64,000 nucleotides of DNA, from NCBI GenBank assembly GCA_951406725.2, contig OX597817.1, positions 22,010,001 to 22,074,000 of the forward strand, in the 5' to 3' direction. Shown here in pieces: positions 7,159-63,823 of the stretch. This DNA is from Octopus vulgaris. Its lineage: Eukaryota. Both the position numbers and the translations under genes were made by a program. The notes beneath the pieces were generated by a model. That model searched no databases. It worked only from the letters and a program-made list of their open reading frames with translations, and was not told the origin of the DNA. Numbering within the stretch: the first letter of the stretch is position 1; each line of letters opens with the position of its first letter.

Positions 7159-7732
7159 TGTAAATATATCAGGCTTTATTCTTGACAACTCACACCGTAT
7201 GAATGACTTGGATTCGATAATTCTAATATTCACATAGATATACGTTTGTGTGTGAGTGTACACATGCAAGCCAACTTATTGAAAAACAAAAGAAGACGTT
7301 GGAATAAATAAGACTGGAAAACGGTGATTCCTGTTCTTACTTGGATGATTTAGAATATGGCATGCTATAACTTATTCGCTGGAAACTGTTTTTGCTTTTC
7401 ATTGTTTGCTGTTACTTTTTTTTATATTAGTTTCATTTTTCTGCTTGCATAAATTTAGATGAACAGCTCACGTGAACTTTCATTAAATCATTTATTTTTA
7501 TATATATAGTCTGTAACATTTATAAAATGTGCTATAGCTTCTTCTACTGCTGCTACTGCATCTGGTTTTCAAATATGCCAGTGAAAGTCTGGAATACACA
7601 AAGACGGAGTCTCTATATGACACATGAACTGTTAGAGATAGCAACCAAATCGCTCAGAATTACATTCTCTTAAAAATTATCACATTGGATATTGTAGTCC
7701 AAGATATACATTTCTCAGAAAATAAACTAGGT

Positions 7733-7900
7733 AATCATGTACGTTATTTACATTACTTACAATTGACGGATATTTGTCCTCATCTTGTTTGTTGTTAACA
7801 CAACGTTTCGGCTGATATACCCTCCAGCCTTCATCAGGGGTCTTGGGGAAATTTCGAACCTGGCTCCTCATTCCTAAGGTATTTTTCGCTGTTGCTATTG

Positions 7901-7939
<39 letters not shown>

Positions 7940-8011
7940 CCACTGCCTGGAATCGAACTCGGAATCTTGGGGTTGGTATCCAGCGCACTTAACCACTACA
8001 CCATATGCCGG
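7733..8011 (-). mobile_element. Solo PLE terminal repeat: tRNA-like head + (AAT)n + hammerhead
   Basis: Matches the terminal repeats of the PLE at 19070-20333 and both arms of 55400-56114. Minus-strand box A TGGTGTAGTGG and box B GAGTTCGATTCC. Interrupts a copy of the old repeat. Confidence 0.85.
7797..7842 (-). ncRNA. Minimal type-I hammerhead ribozyme motif
   Basis: Minus strand GACCC-CUGAUGA-A-GGCUG-gaggguauau-CAGCC-GAAA-CG-UU-GUGUU: intact core, stem II, palindromic stem III and one mismatch in stem I. Confidence 0.75.
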
Positions 8012-8092
8012 TAGTCATGGTTAGAATGCATTTCATACAACTTAAGTCTAAACAACCACGTGTGCTGCTTGGGCTACTATTGATCTTACTCT

Positions 8093-8719: not shown

Positions 8720-9046
8720 ATGGCTCAGTGGTTAGAGCGTCGAGCTTACGATCGTGAGGTTGTGAGCTCGAATCCCGGACCGGGCTACGTGTTGTGTTCT
8801 TGAGCAAGGCACTTTATTTCACGTTCCTCCAGTTCACTCAGCTGTAGAAATGAGCTGCGACGTCACTGGTGCCAAGCTGTATCGACCTTTGTCTTTCCCT
8901 TGGATAACACTGGTGGCGTGGAGAGGGGAGGCTGGTATGCATGGGCGACTGCTGGTCTTCCATAAACAACCTCGCCCGACTTGTGTCTAGGAGGGTAACT
9001 TTCGAGGTGCAATCCCATGGTCTGTGTCGTGACCGAAGGGAGTCTC
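8720..9046 (+). mobile_element. tRNA-derived CORE-type SINE
   Basis: Box A TGGCTCAGTGG, box B-like GAGCTCGAATCC, CORE-like TTGAGCAAGGCACTTTATTTCAC...CTCAGCTGTAGAAATGAG, then a LINE-like tail. Confidence 0.85.
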
Positions 9047-19037: not shown

Positions 19038-19220
19038 TTTCTAATAGTAACAACTTAGTAACATTTATACAGTTCTATACTTAAGAGATGATAAATTATG
19101 TACGCTGTTTACATTATTTACATTTGACGGATATTTGTCCTCATCTTGCTTGTTGTTAACACAACGTTTCGGCTGATATACCCTCCAGCCTTCATGGGAT
19201 AAACACCACTATAACTGACC

Positions 19221-20095
19221 CTATGGCTGCGATATTTCAATGACACCTTTATACTCTAGCACCATCAGGATGATGTCCAAGTGCTGTTAGATCATGTGAA
19301 CTCAATAAAGCCATCCATACAATTCGCAATGGAAAAAGAAAAGATAATCAGCTAGCCTTCCTGGACGTGTTAACGTCACGCACCAAGTATCAATTCAGGA
19401 CATCCGTATACCGCAAGCAGACCTTCACTGGACGATACCTCAACTTCAATTCCCACTATCCATACAGTGCTAAAACATCGAGCAAAAAAGATAAGTAGCG
19501 ATCGTGATACACACCATGAAGAAATAATCAAGCTCAGAAACAATCTATTAAGCAACAACTACACCAAAAACATACTATCCACTCCAATTATGAAGAAAAG
19601 TGAGAATGAAATAAATAAACGGTCCACAGTCTGTCTACCCTATGTGAAAGGCCTCTCCGAAAAGACACAAAAGATATGCGGCTTATATGACATCAGGAGA
19701 GTACTCAAGAGTAACACTACACTTCGCAAATATCTCCTTCGAGTAAAACCACCAATATAATGGAATATGACCAAATATTTTGTGTACTCCAACCCATGCA
19801 GCTGCGGTAGGTTACACAAAGGCGAAACATGCCACCCCCTCAAAATAAGAGTCGAGGAACATTGCAAAGGAGATATTGATAAATCGGGTATAGCTGATCA
19901 TGTATAGAAAAATGGTGACCACCTCCCCCTGCAGGACGAAGTTAAAATAATAGACAGAGAACAGCACTGGAAAATGCGAAAACTAAAAGAAGCAGCACAT
20001 ATGCTAGGACACAACCTCGTAAGCAGACCGAGTGCAGATATGTACAGCATATGGGAACTGGTATTAAGGAAGAATAGGAAAATATTAGATTCATA
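19221..20095 (+). pseudogene. Decayed PLE ORF: RT C-terminal half/thumb + GIY-YIG endonuclease
   Basis: LWLRYFNDTFIL (YVDD-like), IQFAMEKEKDNQLAFLDV, VYRKQTFTGRYLNFNSH, CLPYVKGLSEK, VYSNPCSCGRLHKGET...RVEEH, KSGIADH, RKLKEAAH; contains stops and a frameshift. Confidence 0.9.
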
Positions 20096-20250
20096 AACCC
20101 TAAATTCACTCCATAAGTACCCACGGGCATATGGCGTGGTGGTTAAGATTCCGAGTTCGATTCCAGGCACGTAATAATACGAAGAAGAAGAAGTAGAATA
20201 ACCTCAAAAAATACCTTAAAAATGAGAAGCCAGGTTCGAAATTTCCCCAA

Positions 20251-20296
20251 GACACCTGATGAAGACTGGGAGTTATCTCAGCCGAAACTTTGTGTT
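20251..20296 (+). ncRNA. Hammerhead ribozyme motif in PLE 3' repeat (degenerate)
   Basis: GACAC-CUGAUGA-AGACUG...CAGCC-GAAA-CUUU-GUGUU; stems II and III are mutated relative to the other copies. Confidence 0.6.
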
Positions 20297-20925
20297 AACA
20301 ACAAACAAGATAAGGATAGATATCCGTCGTAATATTTGAGAAATCTTATCAATTTGGAAAATGATATCGCTAAAATAAAAGATTTTAGCAAACCAACGTT
20401 GATACGGTTTAATATATTACTTTTACTCGCTATTTCACTTGAACAAACATTTCCCATTCTTATATCCAGTTCCACCCAGGAATAACAACTTCAGTGACGG
20501 ACAATACTTAAACTTTCCTAATTTCATTCCCCATTCCCTCAGTATATGCTGAAATATGTGCGAGTATTTTATGTCAATTACATGTTTCGAATCATAAAGA
20601 ATATATTCATGAAGTTTATAGATGAATACAAGCGAAAATATACGTGTGTGCTCTGTATATATGAATATATATATATATATATATACAGGTATATATATAT
20701 GCGCGCGCACAAATGTATCTATATAATGTATTCATGTACATGTCTTAAGGTTGCGTATATATATGAAATATATATATATATATATTTATATATAAAGATA
20801 GATATATAATATAAATAGATATGTATACGCATAAATACACACACACACAAATATATAAACGTCTGCGCGTTTGTATATATATATATGTATATACATATAT
20901 ATGTGTGTATATATATATATATATA

Positions 20926-54671: not shown

Positions 54672-55463
54672 TTAGGAAACACTGTGAAAAGGTTGGGAAC
54701 ACTACTATAGATGTTAGGCTATATAACGATATTGATATCAGAAAGTTCTTAAAAGGACGGTGAATTAAAGCTTGGTGCTGATAATAATCCAATGTAAGGT
54801 AAATGCACACACACACACACACAATCTCTCTCCCTCTCTCTTTTTCTCTCTCCTCTCTCTTTCTCTTCATCTCTCTTTCCTTCGCTGTCTCCCTCTATCA
54901 CTCTCTCCCTCGCTTTCTCTTCCTTTCTCTCCATCGTTCTTTCTCTCTCTCTCTCTCTCTCTCTCACACCATACACGCTCACACATACATAAACACAACT
55001 GCGCAAACAGACGCACAATTCAAACACACATTACACACACACACACACACACACACACAATACACACATACACAAACAAACAAACAAATAAACAAACAAA
55101 CAAAACAACCAACACTCATACCCATAAACATACACAAATAATTATTGACCGCTGTACACAAAGAAAATTATTAAAATGTTGCCAACAAGGAATTACTTTC
55201 TGGTTGCGCAATTTACTTGAAATAGTAACAAAATTTCCATCTTATCATACACTGGCATCTTAAAAAAAAGAAAAGGGTATATTTGGTTAATGTAATCCTA
55301 GATATCCTTAGAAATATGGGGTGGTCACTGCTGAACTGTCTTTACTGACAGACTTGGTTTACCAGGATTTCCATTAGAAAAATAAACAATAAAAACAACA
55401 TTATTTACACTATTTACATTATTTACATTCGGCGGATATTTTGTCCTCATCTTGTTTGTTGTT

Positions 55464-55509
55464 AACACAACGTTTCGGCTGATACACCCATCAGCCTTCT
55501 TCAAGTGTC
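55464..55509 (-). ncRNA. Hammerhead motif with mutated core (UUGAAGA)
   Basis: Minus strand GACAC-UUGAAGA-A-GGCUGAU...AUCAGCC-GAAA-CG-UU-GUGUU. Confidence 0.55.
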
Positions 55510-55777
55510 TTGGGGAAATTTCGAACCTGGGTTCTCATTCCTAAGGTATTTTTCTATGTCATTATTATTATTATTGTTCAGGTCACTGCTTGGAATTGAA
55601 CTCGGAATTTTGGGGTTAGTAGCCCGCGCTCTTAACCACTACGCCCACGGGCATATGGAGTAGTGGTAAAGAGCGCGGGCTACTAATCCCAATATTCTGA
55701 GTTCTGTTCCAAGCAGTGACCTGAACAATAAAAATAACAACAACAACAGCAGCACAGTCAACAATAATAGCATAATC

Positions 55778-55848
<71 letters not shown>

Positions 55849-55856
55849 TGATGATA

Positions 55857-55923
<67 letters not shown>

Positions 55924-55970
55924 TCGAAAAATAACTTAGGAATGAGAACCCAGGTTCGAAATTTCCCCAG

Positions 55971-56016
55971 GACACCTGAGGAAGGCTGGTGGGTATATCG
56001 GCCGAAACGTTGTGTT
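55971..56016 (+). ncRNA. Minimal type-I hammerhead ribozyme, best-preserved copy
   Basis: GACAC-CUGAGGA-A-GGCUGGU-ggguau-AUCGGCC-GAAA-CG-UU-GUGUU: all stems pair, core CUGANGA/GAAA/UH intact. Confidence 0.8.
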
Positions 56017-56978
56017 AACAACAAACCAGATGAGGTCAAAATATCCGTCGAATGTAAATAATGTAAATAGTGTAAATAATGTACATAATTCCTCATCTCT
56101 TAAATATAGAACTGGATAAAAACAACAACAATAGGTATAAAGTAAACAAATAAATTACCAACCAGCTTCTTGCACGGACAGCCACTCGGGATGCATTTAG
56201 GATACAGAGAAAGAGCGCACAGCCGTTTGTTTCCTCTTCAGAATAGAAACGGTGGGTTGAACCATTCTCCCAGGACAAACTAGTAAGTTTTACTCATAAT
56301 TTCGTAAAATATATTCGAGGCCAGGATATTGCTTTCCAGTAGTCACCTTCTACTTTGCGCTGGAGAGAAAACAAAACAAAACTCTGACCTCGGCCCTTTA
56401 CAAATAATTAATAACGATAGCTATTATTATCTAAGAGACAACAGTGTAAAATAAACATATATCAACGACCAACAAACAGAAAAAAAAACATTAATAATAA
56501 TGACGCTAAGAATAAGAATAATCGTTGTGATGATAATAATAGTAATAATAACAAACTTCACAAATAATAGTGCGAAATGCTGATGATGATGATGTGGAGG
56601 ATGAGGATGATGATGATGATGATGATGATGGCTGTAGCAGTATCAATACTAATAAGAAAATAAGCAAAACGAAATGAGTGGAGAAATGAAATTAAGATTT
56701 AGCGTCATATTAAAGTCACGTAGTTTCGTCTATTTGCAAACGAAGAATATATAATATTCTGTTTGCAACGAGAATAAATGACTTATAGGTTTTAACTTCA
56801 ACTGATTAACTATATTTCTGGATAATTCAATTTTGAAGAAGGAAAATTTAGCTATCCAATGACCCCAATAGAGAAATCGATATGAGAGATGCGAGTTAAA
56901 TTTGCAGCATTGCTGAAACTTGAATTGGAGAAATGAATTTCAGCGTGTAATTTCTGCCGGGCAAAATGGATATTACTA

Positions 56979-58563: not shown

Positions 58564-58615
58564 GTCTCCGATGAAGGGATATTATTAATAAATATCCTAG
58601 AAACAGCTGTAAGAT
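58564..58615 (+). ncRNA. Hammerhead motif, second family, copy 1 (core CCGAUGA)
   Basis: UCU-CCGAUGA-A-GGGAUAUU...AAUAUCCU-A-GAAA-CAGCUG-UA-AGA. Confidence 0.55.
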
Positions 58616-58710
58616 CTTCTAACTCTAAATGATCTATTACCTATACAGCCTTTGTTTCTTTTTTTCTTATTACGCAAACTATTCTAATATATATATATAT
58701 GTGTGTGTGT

Positions 58711-58766
<56 letters not shown>

Positions 58767-59153
58767 GACAATAGAGATTACAAAGCTTGTCATTTTGATT
58801 TATCTTCTCATTCTAACCATACCCCCTATCATCTATCCACAAATACTAGCAATACATTCTCAAATTTTCATTCACCACAAAACATCTTCGAATGAGCAAT
58901 ACAGAATCCACGGCTCCATACTTTGAAATGACTAAACATGAACTACTATTGGATCTTACATACCATGTGCAGGAAACTTTTTTACCACTTCTATACACGA
59001 CTTTACTCGAATAATGGAGCTGCATCTAAAATGTTTTATATTTCATTTCTACCTTCATTCTCTTACTTCCCTCTATATTCCCTATCTCTCCTGTTCCACA
59101 ATAATTCCTTATTTCGAATTCAAACATTTACCTGTATTTAACCATCTCACATC

Positions 59154-59201
59154 GTCTCTGATGAAGGGATATCCATAATATCCCAGAAACAGCTGTAAAA
59201 C
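59154..59201 (+). ncRNA. Hammerhead motif, second family, copy 2 (intact core)
   Basis: GUCU-CUGAUGA-A-GGGAUAU-ccaua-AUAUCCC-A-GAAA-CAGCUG-UA-AAAC; palindromic stem III ACAGCUGU. Confidence 0.7.
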
Positions 59202-59273
59202 TATATCTATATATCTTTCCTTATAAATGTTTTGAATACTCCTCACAGCCTCAGCTTTTTTTATCTCATTTGT

Positions 59274-60156: not shown

Positions 60157-60496
60157 CTTTCTGTCTCTCTCTTTCTCTCTCCTTGATGACGAATCTTGCA
60201 GACAGATGTGAGATTACTGAGAAGGCTGAGAAACATAGGCCTTTTATTTGACTCAGCTTGTTGCACAAGCTTTATAGAAGCTGTTTCAACCAATTCCGCC
60301 TACATCATTTTCCGACAGCATAGAGACTGATGAGTTGGTAGGAAGAAAGTGGCACTCAAAAGGCTTGTAGGTGTTGCATAAAATTTTAATAAATCATATG
60401 GAACGGAGACAAACGGATATATATAAATGCGTATGTATATATCAGTTTGTATATATATATACTTCATAACTTAAAATTGAATAGAAGATCTGAAAA

Positions 60497-60542
60497 CCAC
60501 CTGATGAATGTCCTTAGAAGAGACACGAAACAATAGTAGTGG
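60497..60542 (+). ncRNA. Hammerhead motif, third family
   Basis: CCAC-CUGAUGA-A-UGUC-cuuagaaga-GACA-C-GAAA-C-aaua-G-UA-GUGG; heads the AT-rich repeat also found at 39520 and 59810. Confidence 0.72.
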
Positions 60543-60728
60543 CTAATTTAATTTTATTTAATTTATATAAAAATTTTTATGTATTGGATTAAGTGTTTCT
60601 TTGTTTGATTTGCATAATAGTGGTTTTGTCTCTAATTAATATTATATAATATTTTACTATAAAATTGTATTCAATCCTAAATCTGATTTTTCCCTGTAAA
60701 TTTGGATTTATTCCCTAATATTTATTAT

Positions 60729-61784: not shown

Positions 61785-62348
61785 CTTTATTATACACACA
61801 CACACACACACACACTCGCACGCACACACATAAAACAAATTTCTAGAATGTCTTTAGAGGGATATATAATCCTAGTGTTACCGTGCTCGCTCTTATTGGT
61901 TGACAGTATTAACTAACCTCAGTAAATGTAGATGAACTCCAATTAGTTGAATTTACTACAATAGGTAAATCCAAATGTCTTTATAAGGACATAGTGTCTA
62001 CCGACATATTTATATATGTTTGTGTATGCATATTTTTATATATATTTGAGTGCGTGGGTGCTGTTTTGTGTATACACACACACACAATCACATATATATA
62101 TATATGCCAAGGTATGTATACAAGGACGTTAACGTATGTATTTGCATGCATGTATATGTTTACATATATATGAGTATGTACATTGAATGTATGTGTGTGT
62201 GTTTGTTTATGTGAGTGTGTGTCTGTGTATAAGTATATATATATATATACCCTAACACAGACACACTCAGGCACACAGACACACACGCACACACACATGC
62301 AATTTATATACTCATATATATGCAAACATATATATGAGTATATATGTG

Positions 62349-62422
<74 letters not shown>

Positions 62423-62437
62423 TATATATATATATAT

Positions 62438-63823
62438 GGAAACAAGTCCCTTGCAGTGAATTACCGTCCGATCTCACTCACCTCTCATATCATCAAGGTA
62501 TTTGAGAGGGTGGTGAGATCTCGAATAACCCAATTTCTGGAAAGCAACAGACGGCTGATCTCCAACCAACATGGGTTCCGTAATGGAAGGGACTGCCTAA
62601 CGCAGCTCCTGCATCACTTTGAGGACATTTTGAGAGCTTTGGGAGAGGGCTCCAACACCGATGTCATCTACCTTGATTTCAGTAAGGCCTTCGACAGAGT
62701 CGATCACAAGATCCTATTGAAAAAACTATCCAACATTGGTGTCTCTGGAAAGTTACTGAAATGGATTAAGTGTTTCCTGACAGACAGATCTCAACATGTT
62801 GTAGTTGAAGGGGTAAAATCAAGCCCAGCCAAAGTCAGTAGTGGCGTTCCGCAAGGCACTGTGCTGGGCCCACTTCTTTTCATCATTTACATTAATGACA
62901 TTAATGACATCATCAAGCACAGCAACATAAAAATCTTTGCAGATGACTCCAAGCTACAGAAGGTCATAAATGAGGCGAGTGACCGGACATGCCTTCAGTC
63001 AGATCTACTGGCTGTTATCCAATGGGCAGAAAAAAACAATATGCTGCTGAACGAGGATAAATTTGAGCTAATCCACTTTGGAAAAGAGGATGCCCTGAAA
63101 CTCCCATACTTCCTTCCTTCAGGTGAAACTCTCGCGGCGTCCAACAACATCAGAGACTTGGGAGTAATTGTGGACAACAACGTAAGCTGGGCCACTCATA
63201 TAAACACCAAAGTTGACATGGCCCGCAGAATGTGTTCCTGGATTCTCAGAACTTTCCAGTCGAGAGATATCCACACCATTATCCTTCTCTTCTCCACTTT
63301 TGCCCGACCCCACCTTGAATACTGTTGTCCACTGTGGTCTCCCCACACAATACAAGGTATCATAAAAGTTGAAGCACCTCAAAGGGCAATCACAAAAAAG
63401 ATAGATGGCATGACAGGCCTCGACTATTGGGGTCGGCTAGAAAAGCTAAAACTCTATTCTCTCCAACGTCGTCGTGAGCGCTACATCATCTGCATGATGT
63501 GGAAAATATTCCATCAGCATTGCCCAAATGATGTTGGCATCACCTTTAAGGTACATCTAAGGCTTGGGCCCCGTGCCATCCGCCCAAAACAAAAATCGCA
63601 CTCTCATCTCATAACAACAATACGGCACAATTATTTCACCTCAATTGGCCCCGCTCTCTTTAACATTACACCAAAACACATTAAAACAGAAACTGACCCT
63701 ATAGGGTTCAAGAAGTCTTTGGACAGATTCCTTCAAGAAATCCCGGATAAACCCCCTACACCTGGATATGTCTCTGTAAACAATAACTCTCTACTTGAGT
63801 GGGCCATAGTGCCCAAATTCTGA
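62438..63823 (+). CDS. Non-LTR reverse transcriptase + C-terminal domain (ORF2, lacking endonuclease and true start)
   Basis: [66 protein letters not shown]; 461 sense codons with no stop or frameshift. Confidence 0.95.

What the first reader, a model, noticed from the sequence alone, without database searches (positions are those of the whole stretch)
7733..8011. tRNA-promoter + hammerhead cassette travelling without its Penelope ORF
Seen: on one strand a tRNA-like box A/box B head is followed by an (AAT)n spacer and, ~170 nt from the head, a minimal type-I hammerhead. The same unit is the terminal repeat of the PLE at 19070-20333, but here it stands alone inside an older repeat. Known: PLE terminal repeats carry minimal hammerheads, and SINE heads are Pol III promoters. 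Inference: this family has fused the two, giving a SINE-like, self-cleaving non-autonomous element (SINE/retrozyme hybrid) that PLE RT could mobilise. I do not know of a description of this combination.
Basis: partly seen in the sequence, partly recalled or inferred. Interest (0 to 1): 0.75.

Follow-up and report, generated by a model that had tools for sequence, protein, structure and literature searches.

The report
Penelope retrotransposon with tRNA-type promoter
This short insert is the front end of a common protein-coding jumping gene rather than a separate mini-element, and the unusual part is that the whole gene likely uses a borrowed tRNA-type promoter and RNA polymerase III, an enzyme that normally makes only short non-coding RNAs.

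Summary
The anatomy is real: window 8009-7740 (minus strand) holds a tRNA-like box A/B head, an (AAT)n spacer and a minimal type-I hammerhead. It sits in an older repeat with a 10-bp target duplication. It is not a retrozyme, and I found no sign of an independent SINE lineage. It is a solo terminal repeat of a Penelope/Poseidon-type element: the 5' UTR plus the first 44 codons of an 835-codon RT-endonuclease ORF. The head follows the ORF in 28 of 30 ORF-bearing loci. Two results point to Pol III transcription of the coding element itself. First, 27 of 41 copies reaching the head's start stop there (about 4% expected). Second, the family's 2.5-kb ORF has no TTTT terminator, whereas none of 35 related PLE ORFs is TTTT-free. 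Solos are best explained as run-off cDNAs from head-initiated RNA. Pol III use and cleavage are untested; this copy's hammerhead has a broken stem I. A tRNA head plus hammerhead is already known (schistosome Sm-alpha); I found no paper on a tRNA-promoter PLE. This scan noted the same family before on other DNA of this genome (e1-8669850).

The parts
7740..8009 (-). Solo pseudo-LTR (5' UTR plus ORF start) of a Penelope/Poseidon-type element; lacks the optional tail; no T4 run
7936..8009 (-). tRNA-derived head (closest to tRNA-Arg among the genomic tRNAs sampled), starting at family position +2
   Evidence: not called by ARAGORN or Rfam
7993..8003 (-). Box A
   Evidence: sequence; box consensus recalled
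7949..7958 (-). Box B
   Evidence: sequence; box consensus recalled
7891..7935 (-). (AAT)n/(AAC)n spacer in the 5' UTR; variable length across copies
7740..7871 (-). First 44 codons of the PLE ORF (ATG at 7871), still open, in the frame that continues into RT-GIY-YIG in full-length copies
7797..7842 (-). Minimal type-I hammerhead, palindromic zero-loop stem III, predicted GUU cut at 7802/7801; stem I second pair broken in this copy
   Evidence: matches min-HHR features in PMC4209133
7730..7739 (.). Target-site duplication, copy at the element's 3' side
8010..8019 (.). Target-site duplication, copy at the element's 5' side (1 mismatch)
7600..8075 (.). Older dispersed repeat interrupted by the insertion (approximate bounds)
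19067..20328 (+). 5'-truncated PLE of the same family: inverted partial pLTR (19067-19195), decayed ORF 3' part (19197 to about 20100), 3' pLTR with internally deleted head (20125-20328)
55400..56114 (.). Head-to-head fold-back pair of the same unit, centred on the short palindrome just upstream of the head (55643-55652)

Best explanation
[quoted passage not shown] Steps. (1) SHOWN: the repeat is head + (AAT)n + ORF start with a minimal hammerhead, and it flanks an 835-codon RT/GIY-YIG ORF. (2) INFERRED: Pol III starts about 6 nt before to 2 nt after head +1 and can cross the 2.8-kb unit because terminators were purged. (3) SHOWN as ends, INFERRED as mechanism: cDNA starts inside the ORF's 5' part at two zones (ORF nt 120-129 and 150-164), as measured in vitro for anole Poseidon. 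(4) INFERRED: priming at the first pLTR-ORF junction copies only back to the start site and gives solos; two such cDNAs joined head to head give fold-backs; priming at a later junction gives ORF-bearing copies. (5) INFERRED by analogy: solos lack the downstream ORF sequence that Poseidon protein needs, so most are dead ends rather than a self-propagating SINE. The hammerhead would cut only as a dimer or with protein help, and it does not set the copied ends.
For: Head fixed after the ORF: 28 of 30 loci (4 of the 30 are duplicates of one insertion, 1 is the window's own). ORF-head junction bridged in contigs of 4 of 4 runs bearing four different organism codes. 5' ends: of 92 hammerhead-anchored arms, 35 had no head within 1,400 nt, 16 end inside the head, 27 end in a 15-nt window at head +1, 14 run into the ORF; 27 of 41 against 4-7% expected, P<1e-21. 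Head-anchored set: 6 of 30 run into the ORF. 3' ends bimodal: 40 of 92 at ORF nt 120-129, 36 of 92 at 150-164, none past 169, as in PMC11167929. T4 runs: 0 in 2,537 nt of the column majority (P 0.029, 0.0095, 0.028 under three shuffles; 0.001 under a fourth); 22 seen vs 87.8 expected in 56 single-copy frames. Controls: 0 of 35 related PLE ORFs are T4-free (337 seen, 212 expected), TTT O/E 0.73-1.84 vs 0.50 here; 12 LINE-like frames of this genome 20 vs 23.3. Relatives' pLTRs inspected are T-rich and headless. No class-specific majority base between 36 ORF-linked and 69 short copies.
Against: No direct transcription evidence: RNA-seq of three raw runs was unstranded, showed no start or end pile-up, and about 80% of reads ran on into unlike flanks. 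No full-length copy was seen to start at the head: the three copies that pass the 5' pLTR (L209, L184, L200) continue into a previous unit's ORF end, which needs multi-unit or read-through RNA. How an uncapped Pol III RNA would be translated is unexplained; protein could come from Pol II read-through. The 27 include 7 fold-back centres reassigned by eye and 4 heads at least 488 nt from their anchor (23 of 37 without those 4), and arms of one fold-back are not independent. The palindrome at the head start could itself favour fold-back. The T4 P-values are moderate for the majority sequence, copies are not independent, and the 35 controls are distant (27-50% identity to the query) and not de-duplicated. 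Phe content is only slightly low (2.4% vs median 2.9%; 7 of 73 relatives as low). One haplotype is borderline enriched in short copies (p=0.05). The 44 codons show no significant match to a relative's N-terminus (E 4.4).
Confidence: 0.55

Rival explanations
1. One reading: solo units are transcribed by Pol III from their own head and recopied in trans by PLE RT, i.e. a true SINE-like non-autonomous lineage, while the ORF RNA comes from Pol II.
For: Sharp 5' ends at the head; short copies outnumber ORF-linked ones; the unit has no T4 run; haplotype skew 14/69 vs 2/36; precedent in Sm-alpha and TRIMp3.
Against: No diagnostic majority differences and similar divergence (0.054-0.065) across classes. 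It does not explain the loss of terminators over the 2.5-kb ORF. Poseidon needs ORF sequence to +172, beyond the RT start sites, which solos lack.
Confidence: 0.22
2. Ordinary PLE 5' truncation: the element is Pol II-transcribed, the head is a passive captured tRNA/SINE piece, and RT stalls or folds back at the palindrome just before the head.
For: Truncated, inverted and solo pLTRs are the norm for PLEs (PMC8557442, PMC4209133). Many fold-backs centre on the palindrome. Multi-unit templates exist.
Against: Solos with unique flanks and arms joined to variously truncated inverted partners also end at -4 to +2. 0 of 3 copies stop at the second head position (two of these lack the head). Boxes A and B are intact while stems decayed. 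The T4 loss is unexplained.
Confidence: 0.15
3. The RNA's 5' end is made by processing (RNase P-type cut at the tRNA-like head of a longer transcript), not by transcription start.
For: Ends cluster at the mature tRNA +1 position.
Against: Acceptor and T stems are broken (no ARAGORN or Rfam call). Many ends keep 2-6 nt upstream of +1. The T4 loss is unexplained.
Confidence: 0.05
4. Retrozyme-like cycle: hammerhead cuts release unit-length, circularising RNAs that are reinserted.
For: Hammerhead core is family-wide; non-LTR retrozymes derive from pLTRs (bioRxiv 10.64898/2026.07.22.740005). One short tandem was seen (L146).
Against: Copies are not tandem arrays and no ends map at the cut site. 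Poseidon uses uncleaved RNA.
Confidence: 0.03

Closest known systems
Penelope/Poseidon PLEs, e.g. Poseidon_Ac (PAc) of Anolis (PMC11167929; parts 1-2 of 4 read)
   Same: One RT + C-terminal GIY-YIG ORF beginning at the hammerhead in the pLTR; two internal RT start zones giving an optional ~30-nt tail; AT-rich targets; uncleaved RNA copied.
   Different: tRNA-derived A/B-box head at the pLTR start, (AAT)n leader, T4-free ORF, 5' ends piled at the head; ATG lies about 30 nt before the hammerhead core rather than in it.
Minimal type-I hammerheads of metazoan pLTRs (PMC4209133; parts 1-2 of 4 read)
   Same: Short stem I, long stem II with a 5' unpaired base, palindromic zero-loop stem III, mostly solo copies from truncated PLEs.
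   Different: No tRNA head in the parts read; this copy's stem I is mutated.
Sm-alpha / Sj-alpha SINE-like elements of Schistosoma (passages of PMC2770079 and PMC8490949; the 1998 original was not held)
   Same: tRNA-derived SINE-like sequence together with a type-I hammerhead.
   Different: Those carry an active hammerhead and are described as non-coding repeats; here the cassette is the terminal repeat and ORF start of an autonomous PLE.
TRIMp3: Cassandra, Helenus, Ajax (PMC10886601; passages)
   Same: Small-RNA-derived Pol III promoter inside a terminal repeat.
   Different: Those are non-coding LTR elements of 0.3-1.3 kb, and the paper argues their autonomous partners must use Pol II; here the coding element itself bears the head.
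Metazoan non-LTR retrozymes (PMC7229834, passages; bioRxiv 10.64898/2026.07.22.740005, parts 1-3 of 5)
   Same: Short, type-I hammerhead, pLTR-related, PLE-dependent.
   Different: Tandem arrays with cut-defined circular RNA; not seen here.

Membership tests
Penelope/Poseidon PLE | Single ORF with RT followed by C-terminal GIY-YIG endonuclease | tested here: met
   835 open codons in the column majority; RVT_1 hit; homologues carry PF26215, some PF01541; GIY-YIG-like motif read by eye, no Pfam hit on that piece
Penelope/Poseidon PLE | pLTRs, partial tandems, 5' inversions, optional tail | tested here: met
Penelope/Poseidon PLE | Minimal hammerhead in the pLTR | tested here: met
   5,517 exact matches of a 23-mer spanning the core
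Penelope/Poseidon PLE | No extra Zn-finger-like linker between RT and EN (unlike Neptune/Nematis) | tested here: met
   No close cysteine pair between RT and EN; criterion from PMC8557442
Penelope/Poseidon PLE | RT phylogeny with reference clade members | not tested
   No tree built; no labelled reference set at hand
tRNA-derived SINE | tRNA-related head with boxes A and B | tested here: met
tRNA-derived SINE | Own lineage, independent of the partner's coding copies | tested here: not met
   No class-specific majority base in 105 copies; one borderline skew
tRNA-derived SINE | Pol III transcription | not testable with these tools
   Indirect signs only; RNA-seq uninformative
tRNA-derived SINE | 3' tail (A-rich or simple repeat) from end-primed TPRT | tested here: not met
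   3' ends lie inside the ORF start at two zones
Non-LTR retrozyme | Head-to-tail tandem units, each with a hammerhead | tested here: not met
   Solo, fold-back or ORF-linked; one short tandem (L146)
Non-LTR retrozyme | Self-cleavage and circular RNA | not testable with these tools
   No ends at the cut site in DNA copies; no suitable RNA library

The most novel reading that the evidence does not exclude
An autonomous, protein-coding retrotransposon transcribed end to end (2.8 kb or more) by RNA polymerase III from a captured tRNA promoter, with its ORF purged of terminators and translated from uncapped RNA; its thousands of SINE-like solo copies are by-products of internal RT priming and a ready precursor of a PLE-mobilised SINE.
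Probability: 0.4. Interest if true: 0.85.

Novelty: new variant of a known kind. Interest (0 to 1): 0.6.

Why it matters
Pol III is taken to drive only short non-coding retroelements, with autonomous partners needing Pol II (stated in PMC10886601). A natural 835-codon ORF under a tRNA promoter would break that rule and make translation of long uncapped Pol III RNA testable. It also gives a defined start site for working out how PLE pLTRs, solos and inversions arise, and shows a route by which SINE-like elements could emerge from a PLE. Automated annotation would likely mislabel the solos as SINEs.

Tried and rejected
Rfam on the whole window: the 150 listed of 318 matches were microsatellite-driven miRNA hits. 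Rfam on the unit and on a better head copy and ARAGORN gave no tRNA or hammerhead call. No RNA holder listed by the run search; three raw RNA runs were unstranded with no start/end pile-up, so they say nothing on promoter or cleavage. Viral contigs gave no relative. Two protein searches meant to find other PLE families in this genome returned only this family. A second hammerhead family (window 58600-59250) was tried as a control but is pyrimidine-rich and unmatched, so it was not used. A GT...AG stretch in the tail looked like a small intron, but the frame is open unspliced and no such skip is among the 15 joints shown of 84. MFE folding did not produce the catalytic dimer for either copy tried, so dimer cleavage rests on literature. 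A target duplication was found for 4 of 17 solo copies, directly abutting the head only in this one. N-terminal comparison with P0008 was not significant. Ferbeyre 1998 was not held. Literature searches (listings only); none listed a tRNA-promoter PLE. Repbase/Dfam and subscription papers could not be searched and no supplements were read, so a curated consensus may already show the head.

Full report
Observation. On the minus strand, 8009-7740 reads as a tRNA-like head with box A (8003-7993) and box B (7958-7949), an (AAT)n/(AAC)n spacer, and a minimal type-I hammerhead. The hammerhead has a palindromic zero-loop stem III and a predicted GUU cut at 7802/7801. The head resembles a genomic tRNA-Arg far beyond shuffles (0 of 300; only the tRNA types sampled were compared) but fails ARAGORN and Rfam. 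The insertion has a 10-bp target duplication with one mismatch and splits an older repeat; 4 of 7 empty homologues join the two flanks. Stem I has a private mismatch at its second pair, so this copy's ribozyme is probably dead (inference). The genome looks like an octopus by repeat families I recall; no call establishes this.

The family. Exact 23-mers occur 5,517 times (hammerhead region) and 1,585 times (head), with 0 control matches. At about 6% divergence that suggests some 20,000 hammerhead arms (rough extrapolation). The head follows the ORF end in 28 of 30 ORF-bearing loci, and 25 of 30 head-anchored loci have the body downstream; the other 5 share no alternative tail. Contigs from 4 of 4 runs with four different organism codes bridge the ORF-head junction. 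[quoted passage not shown] The 'solo cassette' is therefore the 5' UTR plus the first 44 codons of a Penelope/Poseidon-type ORF. No tree was built, so the clade rests on domain order and the absent linker finger.

Ends. I took the first 90 of the 100 listed pattern matches (all on one chromosome), giving 92 distinct arms. 3' ends are bimodal: 40 at ORF nt 120-129, 36 at 150-164, none beyond 169. This mirrors the two internal RT start sites and optional tail of anole Poseidon, where uncleaved RNA is the template and sequence to ORF +172 is required (PMC11167929). 5' ends: 35 arms had no head within 1,400 nt, 16 end inside the head, 27 end within 15 nt around head +1 (7 are fold-back centres reassigned by eye, 4 lie at least 488 nt from their anchor), and 14 run into the ORF. 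The expected share for that window is 4-7%, the observed 27 of 41. No ends map at the hammerhead cut site, which rules against a retrozyme cycle.

Are solos their own lineage? Among 36 ORF-linked, 52 fold-back and 17 solo copies no column has a class-specific majority base. Polymorphic columns are shared and divergence is similar, 0.054-0.065 (the columns flagged there partly overlap the search patterns). One haplotype is borderline enriched in short copies (14/69 vs 2/36, p=0.05), so a minor non-autonomous sub-lineage is not excluded.

Pol III signature on the coding element. If the head were only a SINE promoter, the ORF would have no reason to avoid T runs. The majority ORF has 0 runs of four or more T in 2,537 nt, against 30 A runs (P 0.029, 0.0095, 0.028; 0.001). 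Single decayed copies show 22 against 87.8 expected. Of 80 related loci from metagenome contigs, 35 had a stop-free frame of at least 330 codons. None is T4-free (337 seen, 212 expected) and TTT O/E is 0.73-1.84 against 0.50 here. One of the 35 showed a box A/B pair nearby (L355), about 480 nt upstream and apparently outside the element; the 12 inspected by eye include T-rich, headless pLTRs. Twelve LINE-like frames from this genome, picked by eye from 31 other frames, give 20 against 23.3.

Against. There is no direct RNA evidence. The three copies that pass the 5' pLTR continue into a previous unit, and none was seen starting at the head, so multi-unit or read-through RNA is also used. Translation of an uncapped RNA is unexplained. 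The controls are distant, and the palindrome at the head start may add to the pile-up.

Mechanism (0.55). Pol III starts at the head of an ORF-bearing copy or tandem and reads through a terminator-free unit. The PLE protein nicks AT-rich DNA and primes inside the ORF start. Priming at the first junction runs off at the start site and gives solos like this one, or head-to-head pairs; priming at later junctions gives ORF-bearing copies. Structure and ends are shown; polymerase identity, template choice and the dead-end status of solos are inferred. Rivals: true SINE-like propagation (0.22), passive head with structural truncation (0.15), RNase P-type processing (0.05), retrozyme (0.03).

Known versus new. 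Minimal hammerheads in solo and inverted pLTRs are standard (PMC4209133; PMC8557442 passages). tRNA-derived SINE-like elements with hammerheads exist in schistosomes (passages). Pol III promoters in terminal repeats are known for non-coding TRIMs, whose autonomous partners are argued to need Pol II (PMC10886601 passages). pLTR-derived retrozymes are tandem. Ten searches (listings only) and passages of an octopus repeat annotation (PMC13282606) showed no tRNA-promoter PLE; Repbase and supplements were not seen. Earlier notes of this scan reached a similar reading on other DNA of this genome; my reading was fixed before I saw them, and they are not independent support. Verdict: new variant of a known kind, interest 0.6.

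Noticed in passing
window 58600-59250: A second, unrelated hammerhead-bearing repeat family (core at 59158, a further partial copy ending near 58610); pyrimidine-rich, 16.8 T4 runs per kb, no tRNA head or ORF seen in 30 loci.
   Followed up: partly
window 60490-60550: Another hammerhead-like core (CTGATGA...GAAAC) of a third sequence type.
   Followed up: no
window 62174-63823: Long open LINE-type RT frame, Pfam RVT_1 E 7e-31; used only as a T-run control.
   Followed up: partly
window 7852-7860: A second box-B-like motif inside the first codons of the ORF, family-wide; role unknown.
   Followed up: no
L032, L034, L124/L164, L160, L163, L165: The (AAT)n spacer is often split by later insertions of other repeats, which separates head from body.
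   Followed up: partly
L046, L048, L049, L056: One PLE insertion present four times with 97-98% identical flanks on one chromosome: a recent segmental duplication.
   Followed up: no
L146: Short head-to-tail repeat of the hammerhead body, the only retrozyme-like arrangement noticed.
   Followed up: no
window 8720-8800: A different tRNA-like SINE head on the plus strand.
   Followed up: no
L355 3010-3084: tRNA-like sequence about 480 nt upstream of a related PLE frame in a metagenome contig; appears to be a separate flank element.
   Followed up: partly
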